NCBI GenBank assembly: GCA_036867785.1
Contig: CP145428.1
Location: 605,472-625,471, forward strand
From: Plasmodiophora brassicae
Taxonomy: Eukaryota
Length of the DNA: 20,000 nt
Direction: 5' to 3'
Part shown: piece after piece, positions 1 to 20,000 of the stretch
Position numbering within the stretch: position 1 is the stretch's first letter
Layout: every line of letters begins with the position of its first letter
Program-made: the position numbers and the translations under genes
The notes under the pieces: generated by a model
Database searches by the model: none
The model's input: the letters and a program-made list of their open reading frames with translations, nothing else
Told to the model about the DNA's origin: nothing

Positions 1-16
1 GGTTCCCTCTGCATAG

Positions 17-712: not shown

Positions 713-749
713 TATGACCGGATGGGCCTCCTAATGCGAATACTATCAT

Positions 750-3007
750 TTAATAGCGAGATATTAACGAGCCCTTAGCAACGTTTGCATAGCATCGGAC
801 AGCCGCAATGTTCCGCTCACTCTGCTGGAGGCTGCGGTAGAACAGCAGTCGGTAGACGCGTTTGCTGAGCAGGCCGGCGACGTGCGCGTCGGAATACCGC
901 TTCACGTGTCTTGTGCCGCAAAAGGCCCAGCCAGCACGTGCCTGCTTCACCCAGGACACGTAATGACCTTCGTCGTGTCTAGCGACGTGGGCATTACCCC
1001 AGCGGTCGACAAGGCCGACCAGCTGGAGATGTGCACCTCCGACTTGGAGACCGCATGAGGCACCACATCCTGCACAAAGGAGAACTAAGATATTCCAAGG
1101 TATCTATCCATCATCGTTGTCGGTCCTGCACCTACCACCGCTGCCTTGCGCCGCGCCGCGCCGTACTGACCATCTGACCATCGAGACCTGGCTACTGGAC
1201 GGTTACGATGGGATCTTGCCGCACCAGCACCACTCGGCCTTGCTCGACCTTGCCCTTCAACTGGCGAACCGTCGTGCTGCGGCGCTCCACGTCTGGCCCG
1301 CGATTGCACGGCCGTTCGGAGGTGCACCTCCTGGCGACCGTCGTAGTGTGCTCTACCAGTAACGCGTCGGCAAGGATCGTCCGGCCGCGCGAACCACCCA
1401 CCATGACAACGGGGACGTCGCAGGGCGGGCGACTAATAATTGCACGGCCGGAGGTCGCGCACGTGTGACCTGCTCGACGAACCTGACGATCGCTCGATGC
1501 ATCGGTTGACCATTGGCCCAGATGACCGCATACGCCTGCATCAGCCGTAACAACTCCAATACGAAATCATCCGCGTCATGCTGTTTCCCGGCATCGAACG
1601 AACTCGTCGCCAGGTCAGTCTGGCTGATGACCTTGACGAGCTCAACCAACGTATCGGACGCCTCGTGCTGATACAGACGCGGGTTCATCATCTTATCGTA
1701 CAGGACAATCCAGGGCGCGAGGCCAGAGACACGTTCCCAGTCGGGCAATATTGCACGGACGATCTGCATCGGTGCAATGGCGTAGCAAACCGAACGGCAA
1801 ACGCCTGCCGCATCATTGTTCGATATGCCCCCTGGCAGTAACGTTCCAGCGTCACGCTCCTAAATGTCAATGTCAGCGTCGACTATGACAATTACAGTGC
1901 AGGATGTTGCGCTTCTTCGATCGGTTCGCGGTTGACGTCTTGGGCGGGCCGGCTCGCACGTTCTCCAGGAGTACGTTCAGATGCCTGCCGTCAATGCGCG
2001 CGTGTTAGATGTTAACTTCGCCTGAGTACCGGCGACGTCAGTTTCGAACCAGTTTGGGCGCTTTGAAACAGTGGTTCGCAGGTCCAGCAACAACTTTGCT
2101 CGTCCCCTTGTTTCGTACCTACAGCGGGCGGACCGTCAGTAACGCAGTCGAGAGGGGTATAAGGAACGCCAACCGATGCGGACGGCATGCTGCGCTTGTT
2201 AGCAGGGTCCTTGCTCACAGTCGTCGACATAACCGGCGGGGCCTATGCAACGTCACGCCAGGTTCAGTCTGCATCCCGCTCGCCGCACTGTATAGCAACT
2301 GACCACAGGGCGTGTCGTCGTGCCACAAAGCTTTCGGCGCTTCGCACCCTGATGACTTCGTTTCGGCTATGGAACACATCCATCGTCAGGATACGTGTCT
2401 GCAAACGGCGTCTAACGCTGTCAACCTTGCTTTCTCACGAGGTTGCCTGGCACAGCACCCGTCGGCAGCAGCGTCGTCGTCAACGGCCTCGTCCTCGTCG
2501 TCCCGGTTGCCCTGGCGCTGGCGAATGGCGGCTACAAACGCGGCAACCATGTCGTCGACGATGGCGCGGAATCTCAACGACGCTTGCTTCGTCATTGTGT
2601 TTGGTCGGGAGTCCAGGAAGACCAGCTCGAGCGCGTGGACGACGTAGTCGTGTGCGTGCCTCGAGCTCAGGCCGATCTCGACGAGCGAGCGCCCCACAGC
2701 GCCGATCAGCGCCAGAGCGTGCTTGAACGGTTGCCAGTCGATTGGCCCGGCGCCCAACGACTGTAGCAGGTCGGCGACGACGATCATATGTTCGGCCGGG
2801 TGGCGGTCGGCGTCGTCTGGTCGGTCGCCGACACAGGTCAGCACGCCGGGGCCCAGCGCCCGCGCGTGATACACAACGATCGGCCATTTTCCGCCGTGGA
2901 CCAGTCGACGGGCGACGGCCACCCGTTCTGGACGCGTTTGACAGCGGTGTGGACCTGCGCCGACAGCGTCTGGTCCCCCTTCGACAGATCGACGACTGCA
3001 TCGACTG
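750..3007 (-). pseudogene. Degenerate paralogue of the 3' part of the giant Ulp1-USP gene (end of core domain, linker exons and USP domain)
   Basis: 835-3007 aligns colinearly with 9935-12307 (roughly 80% identity by eye). USP motifs are retained (VCYAIAPMQ, QHDADDF, GHYVSWVK, YRLLFYR). Frameshifts at ~1048, ~1150, ~1465 and ~2888, plus a ~210-bp deletion at ~2458 corresponding to ~11536-11745. Confidence 0.85.
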
Positions 3008-4003: not shown

Positions 4004-5866
4004 TCACTTGCGCCTGGACTTGACAGGGTTGCCAACGACTTCTGGCCTGCGCTGGCGTTTGCGCCCAGTGTTAATGGGCAGCCGAAGCTTCATAACGCAT
4101 CGTCGCAAATAACGTGCCACACGGTTGATGCCTGCAGAGCCTTCGTCGACGTCGTCAACGACGCCTTGTTCTTTTAATATGCGCTTGACAATGCGGTCTT
4201 CCGCGGCTTTGAAGAAGCGATAACAGTTGGCTTGCCACCCACTGAAACCGTCGCTGCTCACAGGCTTCGGTGGCAACGACATTCCGGGCGGTTCCCACTC
4301 AGCTGTAGTGTACTGACGGACCCAGAACAGCGCATCGTAGATGGTATTCGCGTCGTTCCGTGTGAGACCTTGCCAATCCCATAGATCGGGGTCTTCTAGG
4401 GAGCGCGTAAGCGCGATCGTCGCGGCCCAAGCGGACGACATTACGCGAGGCAATGATGGGGCAGGCGCCATTGCCGACATGGGCCATGGAATGGTGTCCG
4501 CAATGTCGTCCGACCACGTAATCTTGCTCGGCGGAACAAGACCCAGCTGCGTCGCCAGTCTCTTTAGAGCCCGAGCATGACGGCACACGCGTCCAAGACC
4601 CTGGGCGACGCCCTTAGGGTTGTCTCGCTTCTCTAGAATGGCGTTGACGACGATGTCTTCAGCTGCTTGGAAGAAACGATGACAGCTGGCCTGCCAGCCT
4701 CTCATGGCACCCGGGTTAGTAGGTTTGGGCGGCAGCTCCATGTTGTCCGGTTTAAAGGTCATGAGGTAGTGGTTCTCCCAGAACAGGGCAGTATAGAAGT
4801 TATGTCTTGGCGATGAGTAGAGATGTTCCCGGTTCCAACACGAAATCTTGTCTAGAGCACGGGTATGCGCTATCGTTGCGGCCCAGGCGGATGACATTTC
4901 AGAAGGCAACGATGGGGCAGGCTTCACTTCCGATTCACTGGGCCAAGGGATGGCGGCGGCGATATCCGCTTCAGCAGTGCACGAGATGTCAGCACACCCG
5001 ACAACATTCAGCTCTCGATGGTTCGCCAGCGGAGACCTTCCGCTCCCCGCACTCGTGGTACTTGTCGGAGAAGGAATCGCGTTAGACGCTTCGCCGCTGG
5101 ATGCGTCAACAGTCTGCCGTCGATGACTTGCGACAGAACGACGACTGCCAGACGCTGAGGTATTTGGTGAGAGCTGACTCGAAATAGAAAGTGACTGATG
5201 TCTCCCAGGCTCCACATGGGCGGTATCCATCCTCTGCTGAACGTTACCCGTCCCACAATCAACTCGTCTACAGACCTCGTCAACGACTTGTTCGAGACGG
5301 ATGTTCCGGAAGCATAAATCCCCGTTGTCGAGAGCCAGCAACATTCCCAATTGTTCAATCGTGAACGGACGCTTGAACGCTGTCATGGAACGCGACCGTC
5401 CATCATGACAGATCCATATGGGCTGCCGCAGCGCAGATCCGATCCATGGACGAATCCTCGTTGGGACCTCACCGTCTACGATGCTTTGAGCAAGCGATTC
5501 GGGATTATTGGCGATGTCCATCAAATCCAGGTTCACGAATGCGAACGCGAGGCTTGTGGGGATCGTCAGGCGTTGGTAGTGGGGTGACATCAAACTGTCC
5601 GTATTGCCACAGGATGCGACGACGCGATCTTGGTCATATGTATACCCATCCGCCAGTGTCACCATCTTGTTCGTCACCCGCCCCGCCAAAGGACACGCGA
5701 ACCATGACGTCAAACCAAGAGCGGGTAGCGCGGCGTTGGTACGGTCGACCTCTTCCGACGTCATCCTTGACGGCATCTCCTCATATTCCGTCGGATAGAC
5801 TTGAAGATCAACGGCCAGCGCGCAACTCGTCGCGCATGTGAACAGGAACACCGCGAGGGCAGGCAT
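4004..5866 (-). CDS. Candidate secreted effector: signal peptide, two U-box-like domains, Ser-rich linker, two 153-aa tandem repeats, C-terminal bipartite NLS (620 aa)
   Basis: Long intronless ORF. N-terminus MPALAVFLFTCATSCALA is signal-peptide-like. FACPLAGRVTNKMVTLADGYTYDQDRV...SP...NLDL resembles the U-box consensus FxCPI...M.DPV...G.TYER..I. A second, degenerate unit is PWIGSALRQPIWICHDGRS...FRNIRLEQVVDE. The repeats DIAAAIPWP.../DIADTIPWP... are 459 nt apart. C-terminus RKRQRR...KSRRK. Confidence 0.8.
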   Translation of the reverse strand: MPALAVFLFTCATSCALAVDLQVYPTEYEEMPSRMTSEEVDRTNAALPALGLTSWFACPLAGRVTNKMVTLADGYTYDQDRVVASCGNTDSLMSPHYQRLTIPTSLAFAFVNLDLMDIANNPESLAQSIVDGEVPTRIRPWIGSALRQPIWICHDGRSRSMTAFKRPFTIEQLGMLLALDNGDLCFRNIRLEQVVDEVCRRVDCGTGNVQQRMDTAHVEPGRHQSLSISSQLSPNTSASGSRRSVASHRRQTVDASSGEASNAIPSPTSTTSAGSGRSPLANHRELNVVGCADISCTAEADIAAAIPWPSESEVKPAPSLPSEMSSAWAATIAHTRALDKISCWNREHLYSSPRHNFYTALFWENHYLMTFKPDNMELPPKPTNPGAMRGWQASCHRFFQAAEDIVVNAILEKRDNPKGVAQGLGRVCRHARALKRLATQLGLVPPSKITWSDDIADTIPWPMSAMAPAPSLPRVMSSAWAATIALTRSLEDPDLWDWQGLTRNDANTIYDALFWVRQYTTAEWEPPGMSLPPKPVSSDGFSGWQANCYRFFKAAEDRIVKRILKEQGVVDDVDEGSAGINRVARYLRRCVMKLRLPINTGRKRQRRPEVVGNPVKSRRK

Positions 5867-5964
5867 CGCTGGTCACCAGATTTCGAAGGTAGCTCCAACG
5901 GCAGCCGACGTGTCACGGCGGGCAGCCACGGGTGCCAGAGAGTCGCCCGCAAAACTCCGCAGAC

Positions 5965-5973
5965 GTATTTATA
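5965..5973 (-). promoter_or_regulatory. TATA-like box (TATAAATAC) upstream of the U-box gene
   Basis: AT-rich TATAAATAC on the minus strand ~100 nt upstream of ATG 5866, in otherwise GC-rich DNA. An exact inverted copy lies at 8511-8519. Confidence 0.35.
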
Positions 5974-6002
5974 GGCCGATGGTAAAGTTTCATTACTGGT
6001 CG

Positions 6003-6057
6003 TGGTAGGATGGTAGGAGGGTCACAAAAAATGCGCGCACTGCGCACTTTTGTGACC
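6003..6057. repeat. 2x TGGTAGGA followed by a 38-bp imperfect palindrome (GGTCACAAAA...TTTTGTGACC, 6020-6057)
   Basis: TGGTAGGA at 6003-6010 and 6011-6018. Perfect 10-bp inverted arms at 6020-6029/6048-6057, with inner TGCGC/GCGCA pairing. Confidence 0.85.
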
Positions 6058-6148
6058 GCTAAGGCCTATGTACTTAGCCGGGCGGTGCAAGCAAACCGAC
6101 GCATTGCCAGCTGGGAACGCAGGTAGGCCCGGAACGAATCGTTCCAAT

Positions 6149-8326
6149 TTATTGGGCCGGCTCCACACAACCGCACCCCTTCGAAAACCGGGAGTGTGAG
6201 AAGTTGGCCCCCCACTTGTCGACGAACTCGGGCAACGACGAGGCGCAATGTTCGCGGTAGCACCGCAGTACTGGCGTCGCGACCTGATTGACGAACGTGC
6301 GGGCACGCTCGGTCAGGTCTTTCTTGCTGGCCGGCAGCGACGCCTCGATGGATAGAAGCAGCACAATCTTCTCCGACGAAGTCGAAAGCTTGGCCAGCTG
6401 TGAACGCCCAGGAAGATCGACATTACCGCCTCGCCTCGCGCGCCCCCGGTTGTCATCGTTCGGATCAGGTTGCGGCAGCGGCGGCGGAGGTGACAATGAC
6501 GACGCCATCGGCGGTTGGACTGGGGGCGGGGCCGGTGGCTGCTGGATGGCTGGCTGAGATTCCGAATTGTTGAGTCGTTGGAGAACGACCTGGTTAACCA
6601 GCGACATCATCGTCTGTGCCAGCTGGGGCACATGCGTTTGAAGCAGTTGTTCCAATTGTTGAAACGCCGGCGTCTCAGGGATATCGCGCTCTGCCAGAGA
6701 GATGAGCTGCATCAGGGACACGGACGCCGGATCGACCCGGAGCTGTGTCGCGACGTACGTCGATGCCAACCCGGGTATCGAGCTCGACTGCGGCGGGCAC
6801 CTGCTATCGAGAGCGATCCGCCGAGCGTTGCGCAGGTTCTCCAGGAAGATCGGCTCCCACTTGGGCGTCAACGCCAGCACGTGGCTGTTCGTCCTGCGCG
6901 CCCGGGCCAGCAGAGCTTTCGAATCGCGGTAATACAATTCCGCGTTCTTGAGCGTCTTGTGGCGCGCCGCTTGCCTGATGTGATCGAGGTCGCCACCACC
7001 CCAGATGGCGAACAGGTACGCCGTCTTGCGGATCGAGTGCGGGCCGTACCGGTGCATCGTGTCGTCGCCGACGACAGGCCTGCAAACACGAACGAACTCG
7101 GCGTTGAACTCGTCGTAGGACAATCCATCCGGGAACGATTCGAACGAAGCGGCGCCTCGGTCGATCGCGTCAAGGTGTTGCTTCGTGCCGAAGACCAACC
7201 CGGACTTGATGCGTGTCCGAGACACCAGCGTGAACAACGCCCGGATGGGGCATAGCTTCGGGTGCGAATCAAGCCGGTACAAGACCAGATTGACGGGACC
7301 CTCGGCCTTGGCCCTCTCCGACTTGCCGCAGACCTGCACGACGAGCTGATCGACGCGGTCCAGGTCGTCCTTGGCCGTCATCTCGAGCAAGAAATCTTCA
7401 AGCGCGATGTCGACGATCTCGTCGGCCCGCAGGAACAGGTGGACGCCCAGCAGGATCGACACCCAGGTGGAATAGTCTCGGAGGGAGCCAGTCGCAACGA
7501 GCTGCCGCCTGATCTCCAGCACCTGGTCAGGCAGCAGAGCGAAGTTACCCTCTGCCTTGTACCCCTGCGTCTCGCGTTTCACCCATTGCTTGGTGTCGAC
7601 CGCAACTTGACTCAGCACAGGATTGCCGCGCCGCCACAGACGTGGCTGTCCGACGTGATGAAAGCAGCCGAAAGACTGATTCGATCTCGAGAACGTCGCC
7701 CAGCATGTGTCGCAAGAATCATCATGCTGTCCAACATGCAGGCCGCAGGCACTCGCTTGACGCGCCGCCTGGAACGCGTCCCAGCAGGCGTTGCACGCGT
7801 CTTCAAAGTTGCCACGTTGATCGCGCGCCGCATGCACCGCCGTAACGGCCGACTCGAACTGCTCCACGTTGCCAGGGCCATTCCACCCGCCTTGGCAGAC
7901 GACAGGCTGCCCACGCCGATCCAGGACGGGCACGCCCGAGGCATCGACAAGCGGCGTCCCCTGGACGCCCCTCTTGAACCGAACAAAGTTCGATAAGGTC
8001 TTCGCACTCATTGACGGGCAGTGGTCAGATGGCGCATCGTCCTGCAGGACAAGCAGGCTGTCGTAGTCACCGACCAGGCAACAGTAGTACCTTAGTCCAC
8101 GTATGTGCTTGCCGTAGGCATGCACCGAGTTCTTGGCCAGGGGCTTGCTCCCGGTGACAGGGCGGCTCGCTCCTTCCGACACGCGAAGGCGGCGACGAAC
8201 CAGGCCCAAACCGACAACGGCGTCCGCCCATAACTCGGCGGGGACATGGTACTTGGCCCGGTTGCTGACACGGAACTGGGCCGCTGTGCGCGTTCGTTGC
8301 CCTCCAGACGATCGTGATCGACCCAT
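6149..8326 (-). CDS. Tyrosine recombinase (Crypton-like), ~725 aa from ATG 8326; the open frame extends to 8485
   Basis: Full catalytic set in order: FLRADE (R), GKSERAK (K), HSIRKTA (HxxR), AARHK (H), AELYYRD (Y). Upstream GNPVLSQV motif, a Pro-rich linker and a Cys/His-containing C-terminal domain. No stops or frameshifts. Confidence 0.9.
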   Translation of the reverse strand: MGRSRSSGGQRTRTAAQFRVSNRAKYHVPAELWADAVVGLGLVRRRLRVSEGASRPVTGSKPLAKNSVHAYGKHIRGLRYYCCLVGDYDSLLVLQDDAPSDHCPSMSAKTLSNFVRFKRGVQGTPLVDASGVPVLDRRGQPVVCQGGWNGPGNVEQFESAVTAVHAARDQRGNFEDACNACWDAFQAARQASACGLHVGQHDDSCDTCWATFSRSNQSFGCFHHVGQPRLWRRGNPVLSQVAVDTKQWVKRETQGYKAEGNFALLPDQVLEIRRQLVATGSLRDYSTWVSILLGVHLFLRADEIVDIALEDFLLEMTAKDDLDRVDQLVVQVCGKSERAKAEGPVNLVLYRLDSHPKLCPIRALFTLVSRTRIKSGLVFGTKQHLDAIDRGAASFESFPDGLSYDEFNAEFVRVCRPVVGDDTMHRYGPHSIRKTAYLFAIWGGGDLDHIRQAARHKTLKNAELYYRDSKALLARARRTNSHVLALTPKWEPIFLENLRNARRIALDSRCPPQSSSIPGLASTYVATQLRVDPASVSLMQLISLAERDIPETPAFQQLEQLLQTHVPQLAQTMMSLVNQVVLQRLNNSESQPAIQQPPAPPPVQPPMASSLSPPPPLPQPDPNDDNRGRARRGGNVDLPGRSQLAKLSTSSEKIVLLLSIEASLPASKKDLTERARTFVNQVATPVLRCYREHCASSLPEFVDKWGANFSHSRFSKGCGCVEPAQ

Positions 8327-8415
8327 GACGTCGTCGACAATGCGGTGTGGAAACCTGCGTGGGGATGCGTGCGGCGGTGCGCTTGGTTGTACCGGGAGGG
8401 GGTGGCGGCGCCGTC

Positions 8416-8476
8416 TGGTAGGATCCGTGGGTGCGGTAGGATCCGTGGTAGGACCCTGGTAGGACCGTTGGTAGGG
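8416..8476. repeat. Five copies of a (T/C)GGTAGG(A/G) motif upstream of the recombinase ATG
   Basis: Copies at 8416, 8434, 8446, 8457 and 8469. CGTGGTAGGA at 8444-8453 is identical to 6001-6010. Confidence 0.85.
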
Positions 8477-8666
8477 ACGATACACGGCGTATTTTGAGGT
8501 AGTATATAGTTATAAATACAGGATGATATGACAGGTGTATCCCTTGTCTTGGTTACGCAAAAAACTCCTGAGACCTCCCAAAAAAAGCCGCGTTGTTTTT
8601 TGCTGGCGGCCCCGGTGGCGTGCGGCGGTGCGGCGTGCGGTCGCCTGGGCGGATGCGCTATACACC

Positions 8667-9910
8667 ATGGAGCGTGCGCCGTCCTCCGACGCCTCCTACA
8701 CGAGGTCGCGATGCGCATGCCCGTTGGAGGGCGGTATACGGCACAGACGTGGAGTCCTCTCAACGTGAAGCAGGCGCCGACTCCATGGTGGGCGTCGCCC
8801 GCGACTGACTACTCGACGACGCTGCCGGTCGCCAACGCCGCCTACTGCATCGTCGTCCACGCCCGCCGGATATGCTGTTGTGTTCAGCCTCGCACGTCGC
8901 AGGACGCCGACACCCTGACGCGCCTGTCTGCCGTGCCTGCACCCGCTGCGACGTCGCCGCAGATGGGCAGCACGGCCCAATGGACTCACGACGACCATAT
9001 CGCGTCCTGCTGGACGCCTGCCGGCGTGCCCGATCTGTCTGTGTGAACGCCCTGCAGTTGCAGCACTGGTACGTGTCGTCGTCTGATGCACAGGCGTGCA
9101 GGCCCTCTAACACGCTGGACAGGACGCACCTGCTGGCTGTCGCCTGCCGTCGTCCGTCCAGCATGAGCACCTGCCGGGTAGCTGTCATCGTGTCTTGGCG
9201 GGGCTGGTCCAGCATCGCGCCGGCATGCTCCTCAGCTGAGGCGGCGCGCTGGACGTTCGCCGATCGTTGCAATCGGTCGCGCGCGCCGCTGTCGTGCACC
9301 ATGCGTTGATGGCGGACCGAGCAACCAAAGGTCTTCTCGCCGATGTCCCCGTCGGCCTGTCGAGCGGCACCTGCCTGCCCTGCAGGTCTTCCAGCAGGCA
9401 GGTGGCGCCCAGTGTCCGTTGCCGTTGATCGACATGCGCACGCCTATCTGCCGTCGACCACCCGCCGCCGGCGTATCGCCTCACCCAGATCACTACAAGC
9501 AGATTAGGTCGACACGCGCGAACGCCGGCCCTGCAGGTCGTCCTGGCGTCAGGCGGCGCCGGACGGCATCCTTTGCTGAAGTGGCCGGCGGTCGACAGCG
9601 CCGACGTCGTCCCTGCATGCGTGTCAAGCATGGCAGGTCAGACCAGACGAGCGATGCAGGCGTTTCGGGTGTCGCAGCATGCACGTGAGGCAGGTGATTG
9701 CGCTCGACTCCAAGCAAACGCGGTTCAGTACGTGTCAGAGCGGTCCTACTTCATTATCCCTGAGTTGTACTGCAGCGTGCGGCCTGGCAAGAAGGCGTGA
9801 GGTACAACTTCTCAACAACGCAAACGAATACAACGTCTTTTACGGATCATATGTTCCACCATTCTTTCTACTGCATGGCCAGGCAGATGAACTCGACGAT
9901 GGACAAGCTT
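8667..9910 (+). pseudogene. Possible decayed plus-strand gene, divergent from the recombinase
   Basis: Chain of overlapping plus-strand frames with protein-like patches (e.g. VQYVSERSYFIIPELYC, EVQLLNNANEYNVFYGSYVPPFFLLHG), downstream of the AT-rich stretch 8490-8520. No continuous ORF or recognisable domain. Confidence 0.25.
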
Positions 9911-10953
9911 TATTGCCTTCGCAGTGCGAAGCACCTGTAGAACAGGAGTCGGTAGACCCGCTTGCTGAGCAAGTCGGCGACGTGCGCGTCGGAATACCCT
10001 TGCACGCGACTGGTGTCGCAGAACGCCCAGCCACCACGTGCCTGCTTCACCCAGGACACGTAATGGCCTTCGTCGTGTCCAGCGACGTGGGCATTACCCC
10101 AGTGGTCGACAAGGCCGACCAACTGGAAATACGCATCTCCAACTTGGAAGACCGCCTGTGGCACCACATCCTGCTCAAAGAAGAAATCAGATATGCCCAG
10201 GTTTCCATCCATCATCGTTGTCGGGCCGGCACGTACCACCGCTGTCTTGCGCCGCGCCATACTGATGGTCTGACCATCGAGACCTGGCTCCTGGACGATT
10301 TCGATGGGATCCTGCCGCACCAGCATCACTTGGCCTTCCTCGACCTTGCCCTTCAACTGACGAACCGTCGTGCTTCGGTGCTCCACGTCCTGCCCGCGAT
10401 TGCACGGCCGTTCAGCAGTGCACCTCCTGGCGATCGTCGTAGTGTGCTCTAGGAGTAACGCGTCGGCGAGGGACGTTCGGCCGTGCGAACCACCCAGCAT
10501 AACAACCGGGAGCTCGCAGGGCGGACGCCTAGTGACATGGCCGCAGGTCTTGCACGCGTCGACGACATGCTCGACAAAGCCAATGATCGCTCTTTCGATC
10601 GGATGACCTAGGGCCCCGACAACCTCGTACGCCTGCATCTGCTGCAGCAGCTCCAGCGCGAAGTCGTCGGCATCGTGCTGTTGCCCGGGATCGAACGACC
10701 TCGTCGCCCGGTCAGCGTCGCTGATGGCCTTGATGAGGTCAACCAGGATGTCGGACGCCGCGTTCAGATCCAGACGAGGGTTCATGACCTTATTGTACAG
10801 GTCAATCCAGGGCGCGGGGCCGGAGACACGTTCCCAGCCCGGCAATGACCGCAAGATCTGCACCGGTGCAATCGCGTAGCAAATAGATCGGCAAACGCCT
10901 GCCGCATCATTGTTCGATATGCCCGCTGGCAGTAACGACCCAGCGTCACGCTC
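9910..10953 (-). other. USP/UCH (peptidase C19) catalytic domain, terminal exon
   Basis: Cys box LPAGISNNDAAGVCRSICYAIAPVQIL (upstream of the listed ORF start), QQHDADDF, CKTC zinc ribbon, His box FQLVGLVDHWG...GHYVSWVK...WAFCDTSRV and YRLLFYR. Confidence 0.88.
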
Positions 10954-13900
10954 CTAAATGTCAATTTCAGCGCCGACTATGACAATTATGCAGTATACCA
11001 CACCTGTGAAGGACTTTGTTCTTCTTTCACCGGTTCGCGGTTGACGCCTTGGGCGGGCCGGCTCGCACGTCCGCCAGGTGTACGTTCGGGTGCCTATGGT
11101 CAATGCGAGCGTGTTAGATGTTATCTTCGCCTGAGTACCGGCGATGTCAGTTTCGAACCAGTTTTGGCGCTGTGAAACGGCGGTTCGCATGTCCAGTCTG
11201 TGCCTACAGCAGGCGGACGGTCAGTAACGCAGTCGAGGCGGGGTACAAGGAATGCCAACCGAAGCAGGCGGCATGGTGCGCGTGTTAGGAGGGTCCTTGA
11301 TCACAGTCGTCGACGTAACCGGCAGAGGCCTCTGCAACGTTCCGCCAGTTCAGTCTACATCCCGCTGGCATCACAATATAGCAACTGACCACAGGGCGTG
11401 TCGTCGTGCCACACAACTTTCGGCGCTTCGCACCCTGATGGCTTCGTTTCTTCTGTGGCACACATCCATCGTCAGTCTGCAAACGGCGTCCAACGCTGTC
11501 AACCTGGCTTTCGCGCGACGTCGACTGGCACAGCTCGCTGGTGTCCCTTGACGAGTCATCGCTGTCGTCTTCCGAGCTGGACATCGAGAGGGCGTCTGCA
11601 GCGGCCTGTTGGGAACGCAGTCAGTACAGTAATCCGTGATCAGCAAAGCAGCCAGCGACGAACGATTCGCCTGCGTTTGACTGCTGCGCGGCTCTGCAGG
11701 GTAACGGCGCGTCGACTGCTCCTCGTTCGACGCGTAGGTCCATCGCCGTCGGCAGCAGCGTCGTCGTCAACGGCCTCGTCAGCCTGGTCGGCTCGGTTCC
11801 CCCGGCGCTGGCGAATGGCGGCGACGTACGCGCCCACCATATCGTCGACGATGCCGCGAAACCTCGACGACGTCGCCTCTGCCATCGGCCTTGGTCGTGA
11901 GTCCAGGATCACCAGCTCGAAGGCGTTGACGAAATAGGCATGTGCGTGCCTCGAGCTCAGGCCGATCTCGACGAGCGTGCGCCCCACAGCGCCGATCAGC
12001 GCGAGAGCGTGCTTGTAGGGGCGCCAATCGATGCGTGCAGCGCCGAACATCTCCAGTAAGTCGTCGACGACGAGGACATGCTCAGCGGGGTCACGAACGG
12101 CGTCGTTTCGACCGGCGCCGACATACGTCAGCACGCCGGGGCCCAGCGCGCGTGCGTGATACACGAGAATCAGGATTTTTTCCGCCGTCGACCAAGTCGA
12201 CAGGTCGACGGGAGACGGCCACCTGTCCTTGACGCCCTTGACAGCGGCGTGCACCTGCGTCGACATTGTCCTGTGGCCCTTGGACAAATGCACGACCGCG
12301 TCGACGCCCGCTGCCTGGACTAGCAGGCCGTTGTGCGGGTCGGCCAGGAACGAGCCCCAGTCGATCTTGGTGCAGGCGCCCCGCGCGTCCGGCGACGAGT
12401 GCAGGACGCCCTGGATGAGGGCCAGCGCCTCCCATAGCCAGTGCCGCTTCTTGCTCCCCTGGTTTGCCGACGGGAGGGGTACGTCGCGCCAACTCTTGCA
12501 CGCATCAAACAGCGTGACTGACCGTGGTGCCAGCGGCAACGTGCTCAGAGTCATCGGGTCAGACGACGCTGGCAGACGCACCACAGCCGATCGATCATGC
12601 AATGGCGGGACAATCATGACGACGTGCGCCAATACGGCCAGAAAACGCGACGACGGCGCCCAGCGTCCATCGGGGCGAGCACGCATCGCTCGACGCTGAG
12701 CGACGGTCTTGGTCGCAGACCCCATCAGATCGGACACATACTCATCGGTGATTTCGTCAGGAGGCGGGTCGACCAGGGCGACGAACGGATGGATGACGCG
12801 TCCCGACCAGCGGAGCAACAGCGTCACGTGGATGCCATCACGTCCCTGACGGTCCCTGGTTCTCTTGACGCGCTCCACCAACGCTTTCGTCACGTTGTAA
12901 TCGTCGTATCGTGATTCGGGTATGATGGACATCACGTCGCGCCACAGGGCCCGGTGTGGCAACCGTTCGACGCCCGGCGACATCCAATTCGTTGCGATCC
13001 AGTTGGAAAAACTAACGGTTGGCAGCGACGACAGCGACGGATCGAGCGTCGATCCACGCCTGCCCAGGCGGTACAGGGCGTCCAGCGACCGCATGAAACC
13101 CGCGAACAGGTAATCGTGCTCCTGGTCCAGGTCCGGTCGATCCAGAGCATGCCATACCCCGGGCGCCAAAATCTTCCTCTTCGCCAACTGATCGTACGTA
13201 TACGCAGCTTCAGTCTGCAGAAGGTTCAGAGCAATGGCGTCCGGCGTCAGCATTGAGCTCAGCCCTGATGAGATGACCAGGAACCACGACTGGACCAGGT
13301 AGTGGAGCGCATGCCGGTTTCCTCTGACGGAGATCCGCAGGACTGTCGACATCATGTCGACGTAGTCGAGGCTCTGAATGAAATTCATAAACTCGCCCTT
13401 GTTGATGACCAGGGCAAGCGGATCCATGTACGTGTCGTCGACGAAGAAGCGGCCAAACTGCAGAGACGAAGACACGTAGTCGAGAGGCGACCCGTTCGAC
13501 AGCCACGGCCCGACATTGCTGTCCGGCGTGGCCCGGTGGTAGAACCGACCTGGGTTGATGGACGAGCCGTCAAAAACCGCATTGAAACAGTCTTCGAAGA
13601 TCTGCAGCGCGTTCAGCGACCGCCGATCGATGTTGGACACGAAAGGAGACCGGCGACCGCGCTCCAGCCGGCGAAACATCGCGCGGTACATCTTGCGAGG
13701 GAACACGACATACTGCTCTAGTTTCCGCCGGAGATGTGCCCAGACGGCTTCCGCGTCCAGCAGCAGGAACGTGGCATCGTCGTTGAACCCATCGGCCTCC
13801 TGCCACATGCTGTTGAAGCACGCATGGCGCATGGTCAGGTTAGCGAAGTACTCAACGCGGTGCACGACAGGAACGCGTTCGGCGGCCATCTGGCGACAGA

Positions 13901-16900
13901 ATCGGATACGCTTCCGCATCGCGTCCCTCACCGGATTCAACGCCCGCTTTACGTCTTCCTTCTTGACCGGGCCGTACTTCCTAAGCGCGGCGGGCAACCC
14001 AGCGATCGACTTCCGGACCTTGCCCTTCTCGAACGTAGCGCGGACGGCCGCGTTCAGGGTACCGATGTGGGCAAAGCGGACGGGGTCCACCAGAACGCGC
14101 CCACGATCCCGCGTGCGCTGCGACACGGTCGCGTTGTAGCACGAGCGCGCGGATGCCATAACGGAACTGCAACGTGACTTGCATCCACCGAACCCGGCGA
14201 CCTCCCCGACCGGATAGTACGAGCTCTTGCGTGGCGCGATGCCACAGCCGACGTCCAGATCTCGCAGCGCTGAGTAGTCGCGGCAGACGGCAACGGCTGT
14301 GTTGTCGGGGAAGGGTTCGGCCGACACGTTGGACCCGATGTCGAAGCGCGCGCAGTCCATTAACGTTGACGGCCAGAACGTTCGCAAGTAGCGGCGCACC
14401 TCGAGAACGTCGGCGACACACGTCATTTTCATCAACGAGCGCACACCTAGCGCTTGCATCAACACCATGATGGAGCCGTCAAGCTCATCCTCAAGAGCCT
14501 CCAGGACAGCGCGGGCGGACGAAGGTGGCATAACCACGGGGCGGCGGTGGGCCCCAAACTGGTTAAGGTAGTCGTTGATCTCGTCCGGCAGATCTGCTTG
14601 GCAGGCACTGAACGCAGCGGAAACCGCCCTGGAGCAGTGCTGCTTGAGGGAACGATGCGTCCAACGGGGTGCGGCAGCGATTAAGAAGATCGAGACATTT
14701 GCCATGGGATGGCAGTCAACCTGACCCAACAGGAATCGCGGCAACTGCGCCACTGACCGCGACGCCTTCTCGTCGTCTCGCTGCACACGCAGATCGTGTA
14801 CCGAGCTTCCCGTATCCGACTGACGTGCACGGTAGTTCCCGTACCTCTGCATCATGTGCAGGAAGGCAAACGATTTGGCTTCGTGCACAGGAAAGTGCTG
14901 CAGCCAGGTCCCGATCGAAGTCGTGATTGCTTGCAAAGAGTCGACGTCAAACACCGGCCGCAATCGCGGGCGACCCCCGTGAGCGTCTGAGGCGCGACGC
15001 GCCTCATCCGCCAGATCGAAGCGGAACCGGCCGCAGAAGGCCTCTTTCCTGGGGGATCCGAAGACATCCCAGAAGCGTTCGCCGGCGAATTCGTCGAGGT
15101 GTATGACCTCAAACGTGGACAGATCCATTGCTGGTGCACTAGCACAGGGCGGCGTCGACTGGCGGACGAGGTGGTCTACGGAGGGGTCGATGCGTTCGTC
15201 ATCGCTTCCGTCGACATTGCTGGGGTCAGGGACGTCGCCGTCATCCATCGAATACGAAGAGTCAGAATCAGTTTCGACGTCGTCCCCGATTGCGTCGCCT
15301 GGGTCAGGGTCATCGCACTCGGAGTCTCCCACCGGATCCTCCCAATCATCACCGACTTCGTCACGCTCAGCGGCTTCGTGTGCATCCCTGATACGCTCCA
15401 GGTATTCTATTGTGCGGTCGTCCTCGTCCCCGTGTTCGACTGGATCTTTGTGCCCGGTGCACTCCTGCTTAGGCTGGCCATGTCCGTCGCAGACCATTAT
15501 CATCGGGGCCGGCGCCCTTTCACAACTGACACGTACCGCTGACGACGGCAGTACTTCGAGCCAGAGCATCGGCGAGCTGTTCCGCAGGTGCATCAGGGGT
15601 AGCGCTATTGTAGACAGTACCGCCAAAGCTGCCACTCGTTTGACCGGCAACGAGTCGTCGCCCCTTCCTAACCGCTACATACGAAGTCAGAAACGTACAG
15701 GAACAAGGAATCGCAAAGGCTTACAGCAACGACGTCTGACGTGCCAAACCGCAAAGCGATGATGTGGGACCGCCGTCTGTCGATCAGAGGGTGGACGACG
15801 TCCCACAGGCAGCCGAACGGGACACCGTATTCGTTGAAGAGGGCGTCCACGTTGTCGACCGACACTGGCGAATCCAAGAATAGGTCGACGATGACAGGAT
15901 CGGTGCTCAAACACACTGTGACCATCAAATCCAGCGGCCACAAGCCGCATGATGTAGAGAGCAGGCTACAGTGGCGCATCATCTGTGCACCAGACGATGG
16001 TGTCGCAGTGGTCTGCCGAAGCCATTGGTCGAATTTGTCACGAAGGCCTGCCGGTGAAGCCTGCAGGCAAGATACGACCTCTCGCCGATGGCGTTCAATC
16101 ATGCCTTGGTGTGGTGGCACGTGGTCGTGCCAGCACAAGTAAGACAGAAGCCAGCCAGAGACGTTGCGGAACGAATCCCAGGACAGGTCTTCGCAGGATT
16201 CGAACAGCGAGAAAACGGCGGGATCAGGAGCATATCCGTACGTCATGGTGACATCGACCAGGGTCAGGCGAATGTTGTCCGAAAGCGCCCGGTTCGAGGT
16301 ACACGTCGTCAGACGACGGCGCCCGGCGAACCACGCACGATGGTCAAATGTCGATTGCAGGAGATCATCCATATCGGCATCATCTGACGAAACGGGCAAA
16401 TCGACCGGGTCTTCCTCAGGCGAAGGATATGGGAGGTCGTCTTCGATAGCAGCGTCAGGAACACGCGTTGGTGCACCACCGTCCCCGGTTAAAATTGCCG
16501 TCAAGGAGATGCCAGGAGAAGCAGAGCGGTTGTACAGTGTGTCAGCTGGGCACGCGGGTAGGTCAGCTTGGCCCATTAGTAAGTAATTGGACGCGATAGC
16601 AACCCTAAGCCAGATTACCTACCATGACACGAGTCTTCAGCTCCCGCAGCGACGGCGACGGTGGCGACTTCTGGATGTGCTGCTGAAGTGTCGACGGATG
16701 CACCAGAAGGGAGCGGCCCAAGTCGGTCGGCGTGTTGCGCCGGCGCATGTGTCGGGTCAGCTGGTAGCGATATTTCGATTTCCATCAGAGACGATTTTGA
16801 ACCACCTAACTCAAAATAAGCAGGTGAATATCGCGTTTGCCGGTGTCGATACCAACCGTCCCCGTCGTGTTCGTCGTTCATCGCGTCGCCAACGGCGGTC

Positions 16901-18347
16901 AGAGTCGCACCCGATCGGTCGGTCGTGTGCGACTTGACCACGCCCTTCGAATTCGGAGCGAAGTCATCAAACTCGATCAGCGGTGCAACATCGAAAGGTG
17001 TGGACTCAATCGACCGTTGCTCGTCTTCGGCAGGCATGTCGTTACGGTTTTCTGCTTCTCTCGGGTAGTCGTGTCTTGCGATCTCCACCGTCCATCGCCG
17101 ACGATATAAGCCGATATCGGTTCCCGAAAACCTCATGGGCGACGCGTTCGCCAAGAAGTCAGCGTACTCGATCACGAAGACGCCACAGTCGGTTCCATTG
17201 CTCTGCATAGGAAACCGACCGCCAGCACGACGACAGGTCCATTCCACCTCGCATGGGTGGCCAGTCAGGTCCAGATACAAATCCAGCATGTACTGGATGA
17301 CGTTGCGACCGAACTCAGTACGAGGTGGTGTGTGCCTCAGCGAGTCGTACCACTCGACCAGGTGGAGCTTCGGTTGGACAACCATCAGGAACCAATGGTT
17401 AGCGTCACAGATCGGGAAAAATATGAGGTCATAGCCAAACACGGGCTCGTGGGCGAACCATCTGGCCCACGTTCTCACATTCGCGTAGGCGTACTTGCCA
17501 TCCTGCATCATCTTCGCATACAACTGCGAGTCGAGCGCAAAGCAGGTCGGGTAGCGTCCAGGCATCGTTACGCGACGCATTTCGTCACGCTTGACGATCA
17601 GAGACAGGCATGCCATGATAACGGCATCGCTGAGCCAGCATTCGTCGCGAAGGCTCCGGATATCCCCCTAAAGCAAAAGGCATTCGTGACGAATCAGACT
17701 GATGTGCTGATGCGACTAGCCGATTGGTAAGCATTGGCATGCATACAGGTTCGACGGCGACATTGCCGATTGTGTACGAGCGCCGTGTGGTATCGTTCCA
17801 GATCTGTTCGGCTGTGGCGTGAATGTCAGCAACGTCAGGAAGCTCGGTCTCGGCTTCTGGCTGTGACAGTGAAGGGGACTGCACACGCCGGTCACGGTCG
17901 TCCGAACTTGTAGGAGACGTCTCCGGTCGACGTGCATAATCTTCGTCGACAGATACATGTCAATATGGGGGACAAGAGGCCACCATCAGGCTTACTGTTC
18001 GAATTGCCATTAGGCGGCAGGATCGTTGAATTACACGCGACGTCTTCGTCGTCCTGGCCGGAACGATCCTGACGAGGCTCCAGTATTGCGAAGTCGTGTC
18101 CTTGCCTACGGTCTTCAAGCAGAATGCGAGATATAGCACTGAACGTCCTCTTGTCATCCTCAACGTATGGGTTCGAGTGACCGATGCAACTCCAGTAGTG
18201 CCGACGTTTCCGTGCTCGCCTTTTGATGGAACTCTGCAGTGGATCTGTATTGCCAAGCCGCCCCATGCCCTGTCGCTTTGATAACGATCTCGGTCAGCCC
18301 GCTTAGGCCGTTTCGACTAGCTCAAACCGTACCTTGCGACCGCCCAT
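9910..18347 (-). CDS. Predicted 11-exon ~2615-aa protein: N-terminal Ulp1/SENP C48 protease, unknown core, C-terminal USP C19 deubiquitinase. Exons 18347-18333, 18269-17996, 17940-17747, 17667-16623, 16566-15725, 15674-11664, 11605-11390, 11331-11260, 11203-11159, 11093-11004, 10953-9910
   Basis: Ten GT-AG introns of 63, 55, 79, 56, 50, 58, 58, 56, 65 and 50 nt, most with YTRAY-like branch sites. They remove the in-frame stops and preserve phase (total 7848 nt = 2616 codons). Splicing restores the N-terminal motifs of both domains (NVAVEP|GDIRSLRDECWLSD; LPAGISNN...CY). Confidence 0.68.
9935..12307. repeat. Intact member of a diverged direct duplication with 835-3007
   Basis: Colinear similarity at an offset of ~9.1-9.3 kb, covering exons and introns. 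Confidence 0.88.
17075..17667 (-). other. Ulp1/SENP (peptidase C48) catalytic domain
   Basis: DIRSLRDECWLSDAVI...YDLIFFPICDANHWFLMVV...EWYDSL...FPMQSNGTDCGVFVIEYA. His, Asp, oxyanion Gln and Cys are all present. Confidence 0.92.
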
Positions 18348-18702
18348 AGTAGCAAAGAATATTGCCCAACTGAGAGGTATGTGGGGCAGTACTCAGGTCA
18401 GTACGGGTAGAGAGTCTGTAACGAAGCGGTGCCAATTGCAGATCGACTTTGGAAATGGACGAGGGCGGCAGCTTTGCCCGGAGGCCGCAACGAAGGCCTC
18501 GCCCTCGTCTGCCGGAAATAGCCCGCGTCCGAGGGATCAATCCAGAATAGCGACCCAACCGTGTCGGTATTTCCAAAAATAGATTCCTGACACTATCGAC
18601 AGCCTCGGAGTTTGGCTAAGGTCTACATTCTCGCGCGACCGTCGCAGAAGTCCGAAGCTGCCGGGAGGTCGGGTGGCGTTGACCACCACCGCGTTCGGGT
18701 TC

Positions 18703-19698
18703 AATTCCGATAGACGGGGGCTGCAATAATAAAGCGCCCGAAAAGTCCGAAGAGCTCCTGAGCGAAGACCAGTGATCGGATCATCCGGAAACCGACGTCA
18801 ATCGTGTTGCGATTTAATTCGCCACTATCTGCTTCGAGGCGGATCGAATTCGGATAGACGGGGGCTGCAATAATAAAGCGTCCGAAAAGTCCGAAGAGCT
18901 CCTGAGCGAAGACCAGTGATCGGATCATCCGGAAACCGACGTCAATCGTGTTGTGATTTAATTCGCGACTATCTGCTTCGAATCGGATCGAATTCGGATA
19001 GACGGGGGCTGCAATAATAAAGCGTCCGAAAAGTCCGAAGAGCTCCTGAGCGAAGACCAGTGATCGGATCATCCGGAAACCGACGTCAATCGTGTTGTGA
19101 TTTAATTCGCGACTATCTGCTTCGAATCGGATCGAATTCGGATAGACGGGGGCTGCAATAATAAAGCGTCCGAAAAGTCCGAAGAGCTCCTGAGCGAAGA
19201 CCAGTGATCGGATCATCCGGACACCGACGTCAATCGTGTTGTGATTTAATTCGCCACTATCTGCTTCGAATCGGATCGAAATCGGATAGACGGGGGCTGC
19301 AATAATAAAGCGTCCGAAAAGTCCGAAGAGCTCCTGAGCGAAGACCAGTGATCGGATAATCCGGAAACCGACGTCAATCGTGTTGCGATTTAATTCGCCA
19401 CAATCTGCTTCGAGTCGGATCGAATTCGGATAGACGGGGGCTGCAATAATAAAGCGTCCGAAAAGTCCGAAGAGCTCCTGAGCGAAGACCAGTGATCGGA
19501 TAATCCGGAAACCGACGTCAATCGTGTTGCGATTTAATTCGCCACAATCTGCTTCGAGTCGGATCGAATTCGGATAGACGGGGGCTGCAATAATAAAGCG
19601 TCCGAAAAGTCCGAAGAGCTCCTGAGCGAAGACCAGTGATCGGATAATCCGGAAACCGACGTCAATCGTGTTGCGATTTAATTCGCCACAATCTGCTT
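18703..19698. repeat. Subtelomeric 144-bp tandem repeat, ~6.9 copies
   Basis: Units start at 18703, 18847, 18991, 19135, 19279, 19423 and 19567 (AATTCGGATAGACGGGGGCTGCAATAATAAAG...). Units differ by only a few substitutions; the last is truncated. Confidence 0.97.
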
Positions 19699-20000
19699 AG
19701 GGTTTTTTTAGGGTTTTAGGGTTTTTTAGGGTTTTTTTAGGGTTTTTAGGGTTTTAGGGTTTTAGGGTTTTAGGGTTTAGGGTTTTAGGGTTTTAGGGTT
19801 TTAGGGTTTTAGGGTTTTAGGGTTTTAGGGTTTTAGGGTTTTAGGGTTTTAGGGTTTTAGGGTTTTAGGGTTTTAGGGTTTTAGGGTTTTAGGGTTTTAG
19901 GGTTTTAGGGTTTTAGGGTTTTAGGGTTTTAGGGTTTTAGGGTTTTAGGGTTTTAGGGTTTTAGGGTTTTAGGGTTTTAGGGTTTTAGGGTTTTAGGGTT
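19697..20000 (+). repeat. Telomere (TTTTAGGG)n
   Basis: Perfect TTTTAGGG array from ~19783 to the window end, G-rich strand pointing outward. Proximal units have T3-T7 variants. Confidence 0.98.

What the first reader, a model, noticed from the sequence alone, without database searches (positions are those of the whole stretch)
5951..18700. Candidate large tyrosine-recombinase mobile element carrying ubiquitin/SUMO-editing cargo
Seen: an intact YR gene 1.6 kb from the giant Ulp1-USP gene, a decayed second copy of that gene 9 kb away, and a subtelomeric location. Known: Cryptons are YR-only DNA transposons, and as I recall some oomycete CryptonS elements also encode a C48 peptidase; fungal Starships are large YR elements with cargo. 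Inference: YR + divergent gene + giant protease gene may form one ~12.7-kb element, possibly a new cargo-carrying YR family in Rhizaria. The alternative is a compact ~2.6-kb Crypton lying by chance beside a subtelomeric gene family.
Basis: inference. Interest (0 to 1): 0.8.

Follow-up and report, generated by a model that had tools for sequence, protein, structure and literature searches.

The report
Compact Crypton transposon beside subtelomeric protease gene
The clubroot pathogen carries a small, intact, multi-copy "Crypton" jumping gene next to a giant repeated ubiquitin/SUMO-protease gene at a chromosome end, but the evidence points to two separate neighbours and not to one large cargo-carrying element.

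Summary
The window is a Plasmodiophora brassicae chromosome end (TTTTAGGG telomere). There is an intact 725-aa tyrosine recombinase (6149-8326, minus strand). There is a spliced gene of about 2,400 aa with an N-terminal Ulp1/C48 domain and a C-terminal USP domain (9910-17616, minus). There is a decayed copy of that gene's 3' end (837-3005).

The recombinase has the full R-K-HxxR-RH-Y catalytic set and a Cre-like predicted fold. It belongs to a family of over 1,000 proteins that Pfam does not model.

Its mobile unit looks compact, about 2.53 kb (~5990-8520):
- All five exact TCCTACCA motifs in the window flank this one ORF.
- DNA contigs from another isolate show recombinase copies with a different flank.
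- The same run shows a paralogous site lacking the unit.

The giant gene is also multi-copy, but its central part has no relatives outside P. brassicae. No repeat or motif marks an outer boundary. I read this as an ordinary Crypton-type element, newly delimited in Rhizaria, inserted in a repeated subtelomeric block. The 12.7-kb composite element is not supported, with about 8% residual probability. Because no genome assembly was available, linkage across all copies remains untested.

The parts
5990..8520 (-). Inferred Crypton-type mobile unit, about 2.53 kb, ends good to about +/-4 nt. It holds one gene.
   Evidence: One search gives loose ends of DNA contigs at 5999 and 8520. One search shows other copies share only TCATTAC (5990-5996) and then differ. 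Searches show that the sequence before 8520 in two contigs resembles the window's 5955-5985, which reads as a paralogous empty site. Searches give the motif distribution.
6149..8326 (-). Tyrosine recombinase CDS, 725 aa, no intron, stop codon included.
   Evidence: It is identical to a 725-aa deposited P. brassicae protein, P0153.
8416..8476 (-). 5' subterminal array of TCCTACCA motifs: 3 exact copies plus 2 with one mismatch. It lies in the untranslated leader upstream of the ATG.
   Evidence: family D1; sequence read.
6003..6018 (-). 3' subterminal pair of tandem TCCTACCA motifs, in the same orientation as the 5' array.
9910..17616 (-). Giant multi-exon gene, model of about 2,398 aa. It has an Ulp1/C48 domain (about 17074-17637), an orphan centre of about 1,300 aa, and a USP/UCH domain (about 9943-10930). 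It is a neighbour of the element, not shown to be part of it.
   Evidence: for the domains. for introns at 10171-10236, 10954-11003, 11094-11158, 11204-11259, 11332-11389, 11606-11663 and 15675-15724; the introns at 16567-16622 and 16806-16856 are inferred. for the model. Deposited models P0165 and P0167 agree.
8521..9909 (.). Spacer between the two genes. It is the most repeated part of the window and the part most covered in RNA-like runs. No convincing ORF was found.
   Evidence: depth, many indel joints, and a plus-strand GT..AG joint at about 9069-9122.
837..3005 (-). Decayed partial copy of the giant gene's 3' end, covering aa 1719-2391 of the model.
4004..5866 (-). 620-aa gene with a hydrophobic N-terminus and an internal duplication, belonging to a multi-copy family. 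Its promoter region is the left flank of the inserted unit.
   Evidence: family D12; up to 15 contigs over one position in run X1.
18703..20000 (.). 144-bp satellite (6.9 copies) followed by the TTTTAGGG telomere repeat.

Best explanation
Positions ~5990-8520 are a compact, autonomous Crypton-type DNA transposon of Plasmodiophora brassicae. It carries one intronless gene for a Cre-like tyrosine recombinase. Same-orientation TCCTACCA motifs flank that gene, five upstream and two downstream, and are the likely recombinase-binding sites. By analogy with the Goodwin model for Cryptons, the recombinase would excise the unit as a circle and re-insert it by site-specific recombination at a short matching sequence, without inverted repeats or a real target duplication. 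This copy sits between the promoter of a multi-copy 620-aa gene and a highly repeated spacer, inside a repeated subtelomeric block. The giant Ulp1-USP gene 1.6 kb away is a separate, lineage-specific, multi-copy subtelomeric gene, not cargo.

Shown: the recombinase's identity and intactness, the motif distribution, the contig breaks at the two ends, the multi-copy state, and the structure of the giant gene.

Inferred: mobility itself, the circle intermediate, the role of the motifs, and the independence of the two genes at the other copies.
For: Recombinase:
- The catalytic residues R300, K335, H430, R433, R455, H456 and Y465 are conserved in 36 aligned relatives.
- The model has pLDDT 85.8. 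Cre, XerH, XerA, IntI and lambda Int are the fold matches, with 31 matches at E<=0.001.
- 5 of 36 relatives hit NDC10_II, a domain that PMC3212892 derives from CryptonF. 2 of 36 hit Phage_integrase.

Compact boundaries:
- Exact TCCTACCA occurs 5 times in 20 kb, all on the minus strand, only at 6003-6018 and 8416-8464. The chance expectation is 0.26, and 0 of 200 shuffles reach 5.
- Two more one-mismatch copies lie at 8434 and 8469.
- In DNA run X12, two contigs match rightwards from 8520. They are preceded by 24-30 nt that align to the window's 5955-5985 (22 of 27 aligned positions). Only 1 of 2,000 shuffles and 4 of 2,000 random places score as well. This is the junction expected if 5990-8520 were absent.
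- Two other X12 contigs match from 5999 and share only TCATTAC (5990-5996) with the window's flank. That is a recombinase copy in a different context.

Copies:
- In X1, one contig of depth 2,050 covers 6141. Contigs at 1-3597 have depth 272-289.
- P. brassicae models P0024 (95% identical fragment inside a different gene model) and P0060 (81%, degenerate) are further copies.

Family habit:
- 23 of 32 listed non-P. brassicae relatives of 600 aa or more lie on contigs of 2.2-3.5 kb.
- The chytrid Zopfochytrium has 5 paralogues within one 90% cluster.

Nothing else lies in the unit: there is no other ORF with a Pfam domain and no inverted repeat.
Against: - All boundary evidence comes from one call on short-read contigs of one isolate. 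The empty-site reading rests on only 24-30 nt. Its best whole-window local alignment is not significant (79 of 100 shuffles score as high). Only the test at the predicted place is significant.
- No clear 4-6 bp terminal direct repeat was found, only CT or (C/A)CT.
- Summed depth over the recombinase (about 5-9x at single positions, 9-13x by bin) is similar to that over the giant gene's 5' part (about 5-9x) in both DNA runs. That is what co-travel would also give, and the tool warns that such depths are not copy numbers.
- Transposition was not observed. There is no allelic empty site and no circle junction.
- Expression is not shown. Contigs of RNA-like runs cover the ORF, but at depths that DNA carry-over from several copies could explain.
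- No Repbase Crypton sequence was available for a phylogeny.
Confidence: 0.62

Rival explanations
1. The recombinase gene no longer moves on its own. It was inserted once, or is a resident gene, and is multi-copy only because the whole subtelomeric block (620-aa gene, recombinase, spacer, giant gene) has been copied between chromosome ends by ordinary recombination.
For: Depth multiples over the recombinase and the giant gene are similar in two DNA runs. The block lies next to a telomere. The gene is kept with intact catalytic residues in Spongospora at 51-54% identity.
Against: Some contigs carry a recombinase end joined to a different flank, and others carry the flanks without the unit. Fragmentary and degenerate copies appear in other gene models (P0024, P0060). 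The spacer and the 620-aa gene have clearly higher depth than the recombinase, so the block is not copied as one piece.
Confidence: 0.2
2. One reading: the recombinase, the spacer and the giant Ulp1-USP gene form one mobile element of about 12-14 kb, a cargo-carrying Crypton or Starship-like element.
For: Some CryptonS and CryptonF elements do encode a C48 peptidase (PMC3212892, passages; PMC13465315, passage). Both genes are on the same strand, 1.6 kb apart, and show similar depth multiples. The nearest Atlas clusters of the C48 domain are stand-alone Ulp1 proteins of about 200 aa from diatoms, basidiomycetes and oomycetes (a lead only).
Against: - No direct or inverted repeat and no TCCTACCA cluster lies near 18700 or anywhere outside the recombinase unit.
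- Contig breaks fall at 5990 and 8520.
- The repeated region extends left of 5951 into the 620-aa gene.
- The decayed gene copy ends at the stop codon, with no spacer or recombinase behind it.
- The central 1,337 aa have no relative outside P. brassicae in two searches.
- The one relative with more than 4 kb of flank (L001) has a PQ-loop gene as neighbour and no C48 or UCH in 5 ORFs scanned.
- There is no DUF3435 captain signature.
Confidence: 0.08
3. The recombinase is a domesticated host gene of plasmodiophorids, used for some cellular recombination task, and not a transposon.
For: The ORF is intact. Close homologues exist in Spongospora. Kojima and Jurka describe repeated Crypton domestication.
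Against: It is multi-copy with degenerate copies. The catalytic set is complete, whereas the domesticated DUF3504 genes have lost theirs. Flanking motif arrays and discrete ends also argue against it.
Confidence: 0.07

Closest known systems
Crypton DNA transposons, especially the CryptonS and CryptonF groups (Goodwin 2003 as cited in, and Kojima & Jurka 2011, PMC3212892)
   Same: It carries a single tyrosine-recombinase gene with the full R-H-R-Y set. The unit is 2.5 kb with no LTR, TIR or reverse transcriptase. Copy number is low. Like CryptonS it has a conserved C-terminal region with no GCR1_C hit. Relatives weakly match NDC10_II, a CryptonF-derived domain.
   Different: The host is a rhizarian, and neither literature search linked Cryptons to Plasmodiophora. 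The ends show only a 2-3 nt match, not a 4-6 bp repeat, and no TATGG termini. Arrays of an 8-nt motif lie inside both ends, a feature not mentioned in the Crypton passages I read. Group placement by phylogeny was not done.
C48-encoding Cryptons of oomycetes (CryptonF-2_PS and some CryptonS)
   Same: A tyrosine recombinase and an Ulp1-type peptidase occur in one neighbourhood.
   Different: There the peptidase is a second small protein inside the element. Here the C48 domain is the N-terminus of a protein of about 2,400 aa and lies more than 8.5 kb outside the inferred element end.
Starship elements of Pezizomycotina
   Same: Both involve a tyrosine recombinase next to large non-transposon genes in a plastic genome region.
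   Different: There is no DUF3435 captain domain, no shared outer boundaries, and the recombinase is transcribed outward at the putative end. According to PMC13465315, Starships are known only from filamentous Dikarya.
Cre/XerD-type site-specific recombinases
   Same: The two-domain fold and the catalytic residues match.
   Different: Sequence identity is only 11-18%. This protein adds a Cys/His-rich insert (C178, C181, C221 invariant; H224 at least 90% conserved) and a conserved C-terminal domain of about 90 aa.

Membership tests
Crypton | Encodes a tyrosine recombinase with the catalytic R-H-R-Y set | tested here: met
   R300, H430, R433 and Y465, plus K335 and R455-H456, are conserved in 36 sequences. 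The predicted fold is Cre-like.
Crypton | No reverse transcriptase or other transposase in the unit | tested here: met
   The YR frame is the only long ORF in 5990-8520; shorter overlapping frames (100-251 aa) were not scanned. No Pfam family was found in the window ORFs scanned other than C48 and UCH.
Crypton | No long terminal or inverted repeats | tested here: met
   No inverted repeats were found at seed 12 in the window. Within 5900-8650 only short arms of 74-89% complementarity appear, none at the ends.
Crypton | Short (4-6 bp) direct repeats at the termini, matching the target | tested here: inconclusive
   Only CT or (C/A)CT is shared at the two junctions. The ends are known to +/-4 nt, from a paralogous and not an allelic empty site.
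Crypton | Several copies in different genomic contexts | tested here: inconclusive
   The depth of contigs over the unit is several times that of the unique flank. Two contigs carry another flank. P0024 and P0060 are further copies. No assembly was available to list the copies.
Crypton | Recombinase groups with Crypton A/F/I/S in a phylogeny | not tested
   No Repbase reference sequences were at hand. The only indirect evidence is NDC10_II in 5 of 36 relatives and no DUF3504 hit.
C48-carrying Crypton (CryptonS / CryptonF-2_PS type) | The peptidase gene lies between the element's termini | tested here: not met
   The C48 domain is at about 17074-17637, and the inferred terminus is at about 8520.
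Starship | Captain recombinase with DUF3435 | tested here: not met
   The protein has no Pfam hit at E<=0.01. DUF3435 is not among the families hit by 36 relatives at E<=1.
Starship | Shared outer boundaries (direct repeats or TIRs) enclosing captain plus cargo | tested here: not met
   No repeat pairs 5951 with 18700.
DIRS/Ngaro retroelements | Reverse transcriptase/RNase H together with the recombinase, and split or inverted terminal repeats | tested here: not met
   No RT domain was found in the scanned ORFs and no such repeats were found.

The most novel reading that the evidence does not exclude
The recombinase unit and the giant Ulp1-USP gene are functionally tied. One form of this is that they move together as a subtelomere-specific composite descended from a C48-carrying Crypton. 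The other is that the recombinase, sitting at several chromosome ends, drives site-specific exchange of subtelomeric cassettes, including the multi-copy 620-aa secreted-type gene family, between chromosomes of this crop pathogen. Similar depth multiples of the two genes in two isolates and the Crypton-C48 precedent leave room for this.
Probability: 0.1. Interest if true: 0.75.

Novelty: new member of a known kind. Interest (0 to 1): 0.36.

Why it matters
Cryptons are rare, poorly delimited transposons whose transposition has never been studied. This copy is intact and apparently multi-copy, with candidate binding-site arrays and ends mapped to a few bases. It comes from a supergroup (Rhizaria) where my two literature searches found no Crypton report for Plasmodiophora.

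The recombinase belongs to a family with 1,183 matching representatives (50% clusters) at E<=0.001 that has no Pfam model, so a family definition would improve annotation.

For clubroot genomics, the result flags a repeated subtelomeric block: a 620-aa gene family, a Crypton and a giant Ulp1-USP gene. Short-read assemblies collapse this block, and it may vary between isolates. It does not reveal a new kind of mobile element.

Tried and rejected
- Whole-genome search: no genome is held for this window. Copies could therefore not be listed or their neighbours compared.
- Earlier scan notes: none exist for this genome or sequence. The word search returned Crypton-type recombinases in giant viruses and Naegleria, which do not bear on this locus.
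- Solved-structure sequence searches gave only chance-level hits, both with the single protein and with the profile.
- Pfam on the recombinase itself found nothing.
- Atlas search with the central 1,337 aa of the giant gene gave no usable hit.
- Rfam on the whole window gave no match at gathering scores.
- Translating the plus-strand spliced spacer transcript gave no convincing ORF.
- Metagenome loci: 9 loci were found, but only L001 has long flanks. No subterminal motif pattern was shared with the window in L001, L002 or L006.
- The look-up of sequencing runs listed no RNA holder on record. Runs X15 and X16 are 'RNA?' by guess only. Parts of the window without cover in those runs are not interpreted.
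- Whole-window alignment of the loose-end consensus was not significant. Only the test at the predicted place was significant.
- I considered a DIRS/Ngaro fragment and rejected it, because there is no reverse transcriptase.
- I considered TATGG termini as in CryptonS; they are not present at the ends read.
- I did not fold the giant gene's centre. It is an orphan without an alignment, so a poor model was expected.


Full report
**Where the window comes from.** The last 295 bases are 36 copies of TTTTAGGG, preceded by 6.9 copies of a 144-bp satellite. Passages of PMC11191646 and PMC6823432 give TTTTAGGG as the telomere repeat of Plasmodiophora brassicae. The proteins encoded here are deposited under that species: PBRA_009556/CEP03976.1 for a fragment of the recombinase, and CEO95394.1 and XXQ29550.1 for the large gene.

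**The recombinase.** ORF 6149-8326 on the minus strand is open for 725 aa. It equals a deposited 725-aa protein (P0153).

Sequence-only searches give little:
- Pfam finds nothing in it.
- Sequence searches of the PDB give only chance hits.

A full HMMER scan of 1.84 billion representatives is more informative. It finds 1,183 relatives at E<=0.001, 669 at 1e-10 and 173 at 1e-30. Many are about 680-750 aa and match from about residue 200 to 720.

In an alignment of 36 of them, R300 (LFLRADE), K335, R455-H456 and Y465 are invariant. H430 and R433 (HSIRKT) are at least 90% conserved. This is the complete catalytic signature of tyrosine recombinases.

The AlphaFold2 model built on that alignment has mean pLDDT 85.8 and pTM 0.70. 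Its best structural matches are Cre (3crx_A, TM 0.73 normalised on Cre, probability 1.00), then XerH, XerA, integron integrase, lambda integrase and the Tn1549 integrase. There are 31 matches at E<=0.001.

Among the 36 relatives, 5 hit NDC10_II (best E 1.4e-6) and 2 hit Phage_integrase. None hits DUF3504, DUF3435 or GCR1_C. Kojima and Jurka derive Ndc10/Cbf2 from CryptonF (PMC3212892, passages).

The family also has three invariant Cys (C178, C181, C221), one at-least-90%-conserved His (H224), and a conserved C-terminal domain.

Named members are from Spongospora subterranea (54% identity) and the chytrids Zopfochytrium polystomum and Blyttiomyces. Zopfochytrium has five paralogues in one 90% cluster on four contigs.

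**The giant gene.** Pfam places Peptidase_C48 (E 1.8e-20) in ORF 16615-17667 and UCH (E 2.7e-07) in ORF 9910-10953. The 1,344-aa ORF between them has no hit.

Laying contigs of four public runs on 1-18700 showed joints with minus-strand GT..AG ends of 50-66 nt in the two RNA-like runs. Neither DNA run has them. After the one-base shift the tool indicates, the introns are 10171-10236, 10954-11003, 11094-11158, 11204-11259, 11332-11389, 11606-11663 and 15675-15724.

One X15 contig of 3,041 nt runs from 17465 to 14268. It crosses the 15675-15724 intron and has 181 letters where the window has 288. That fits two further introns, 16567-16622 and 16806-16856, which keep the frame open.

The model from ATG 16576 has 2,087 aa, the length of CEO95394.1. 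From ATG 17616 it has 2,398 aa and includes the C48 domain. Deposited models splice out one or two more short segments, so the length is approximate.

The full-length form rests on a low-depth contig (depth 22). The spliced USP exons have depths in the thousands. A shorter USP-only transcript, or transcripts from paralogues, may therefore dominate.

**The second copy.** Two segments match:

| Copy 2 | Copy 1 | Identity | Length |
|---|---|---|---|
| 837-2456 | 9937-11534 | 82.7% | 1,642 nt |
| 2459-3005 | 11746-12305 | 79.7% | 561 nt |

Nothing else in 1-4003 matches 4004-18700. The copy covers residues 1719-2391 of the model. It lies in three frames with in-frame stops, so it is decayed. Its homology stops at the gene's stop codon, and neither the spacer nor the recombinase follows it.

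**Where the mobile unit ends.** Reading the flanks of the recombinase ORF, I saw CCTACCA repeated on both sides.
- Exact TCCTACCA occurs five times in the 20 kb. All are on the minus strand, at 6003, 6011, 8416, 8446 and 8457. The chance expectation is 0.26, and 0 of 200 shuffles reach five.
- With one mismatch there are 17 matches against 8.4 expected, and 2 of 200 shuffles reach 17. Seven of the 17 lie in these two clusters.

In DNA run X12 two contigs match the window from 8520 rightwards. Before that point they carry 24-30 other letters. Those letters align to the window's 5955-5985, directly left of the recombinase unit, at 22 of 27 aligned positions. Only 1 of 2,000 shuffles and 4 of 2,000 random 51-nt places score as well. 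A search of the whole window does not single this place out. I read this as a paralogous locus where the promoter region of a 620-aa-gene paralogue abuts the spacer without the unit.

Two other X12 contigs match from 5999 rightwards. A one-base deletion at 5998 is common among the copies. Their preceding letters share only TCATTAC (5990-5996) with the window. I read this as a recombinase copy with a different flank.

Together these place the ends at about 5990 and 8520, a unit of 2.53 kb. It holds a TATA-like start region, five motifs, the ORF and two motifs. The junctions share only CT or (C/A)CT. There are no inverted repeats.

**Copy number.** The tool warns that summed contig depth is not copy number, so I use it only roughly.
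- In X1, exact contigs at 1-3597 have depth 272-289.
- One contig over 6141 has depth 2,050.
- Three contigs over 6279 sum to 2,368.
- Exact contigs inside the giant gene have depths 1,354-2,174.
- In X12 the corresponding figures are about 84-98 for the unique flank, 436-522 over the recombinase, and 579-734 over the giant gene.
- The 620-aa gene and the spacer are higher still. Up to 15 contigs cover position 5714 in X1, and all-depth reaches 7,196 at 9074 in X12.

Both genes are therefore repeated several-fold and to a similar degree, inside a region whose parts are repeated to different degrees. Further recombinase copies show up as P0024 (95% identical over 116 aa, embedded in a different gene model on a 1.25-Mb contig) and P0060 (81%, degenerate).

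**Is the giant gene cargo?**

Evidence against:
- The motif arrays and contig breaks enclose the recombinase alone.
- No repeat pairs 5951 with 18700.
- The repeated region runs on to the left of 5951.
- The decayed gene copy lacks the unit.
- The central 1,337 aa found only P. brassicae's own protein among lengths 735-2,340, and one 115-aa fragment at 88% among shorter proteins. Both searches scored only the 8,000 candidates sharing most words. The recombinase, by contrast, has 51-54% relatives in Spongospora.
- 23 of 32 listed non-P. brassicae relatives of 600 aa or more lie on contigs of 2.2-3.5 kb. This is weak, since most contigs in the collection are short.
- The one relative with long flanks has a PQ-loop gene beside it and no peptidase in five ORFs scanned.

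Evidence for:
- Some CryptonS and CryptonF elements carry a C48 peptidase (PMC13465315, passage).
- The depth multiples are similar.
- The C48 domain's nearest Atlas clusters are stand-alone Ulp1 proteins of about 200 aa from diatoms, basidiomycetes and oomycetes (a lead only).

I put the composite element at about 8%.

**Mechanism.** The best reading is a Crypton-type element. The recombinase binds the TCCTACCA arrays inside both ends, excises the unit as a circle and re-inserts it at a short matching site. This follows the model of Goodwin as summarised in PMC3212892.

The recombinase's identity, the motif distribution, the breaks and the repeated state are shown. Mobility, the circle and the role of the motifs are inferred.

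A hint that the motifs matter comes from the Spongospora-like relative P0001. Its N-terminal extension reads PTTD..ILP..SPTT, which CCTACCA-type repeats would encode in two frames. I could not see its DNA.

**Novelty.** Two full-text searches found no paper that links Cryptons to Plasmodiophora. One search returned 2 papers, both irrelevant by title and abstract. One search returned 10 papers holding 'Crypton' and 'Rhizaria'. None is about a rhizarian Crypton by title or abstract, and I did not open them. The P. brassicae genome papers I searched do not mention recombinases or DNA transposons. This is a new member of a known kind, not a new kind.

Noticed in passing
window 4004-5866 (-): A 620-aa ORF with a hydrophobic, signal-peptide-like N-terminus and an internal duplication (4395-4507 matches 4851-4966). 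It has no Pfam hit. Up to 15 different DNA contigs cover one of its positions, and depth in RNA-like runs is high. It could be a multi-copy subtelomeric secreted-protein family.
   Followed up: partly
window 8521-9909: The spacer between the two genes has the highest summed depth in the window, in both DNA and RNA-like runs. It shows many indel-type joints between paralogues and a plus-strand GT..AG joint (about 9069-9122), yet no convincing ORF. It may be a repeated non-coding transcript or a fragment of another element.
   Followed up: partly
window 12706-12760 (+): Both RNA-like runs show a 55-nt GT..AG joint on the plus strand, inside the open minus-strand ORF of the giant gene. This suggests a spliced antisense transcript.
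   Followed up: no
window 9985-13104 versus 14353-16848: Depth in the RNA-like runs is about 100 times higher over the USP-encoding 3' third of the giant gene than over its 5' two-thirds. A shorter USP-only transcript, or transcripts from paralogues, may be the main product.
   Followed up: no
P0024 (SPQ99558.1): This deposited P. brassicae gene model is labelled 'mitochondrion' by one source. It fuses about 160 unrelated residues to a 95%-identical fragment of the recombinase N-terminus, so it is probably a mis-model across a truncated Crypton copy.
   Followed up: partly
window 18703-19698: A 144-bp satellite (6.9 copies, 98% matches) lies directly inside the telomere repeat. It creates an artefactual 331-aa open frame.
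   Followed up: no
P0001 residues 1-32: The N-terminal extension of the Spongospora-like relative contains PTTD, ILP and SPTT. These are the peptides that CCTACCA repeats would give, which hints that the motif array upstream of the start codon is conserved between genera.
   Followed up: no
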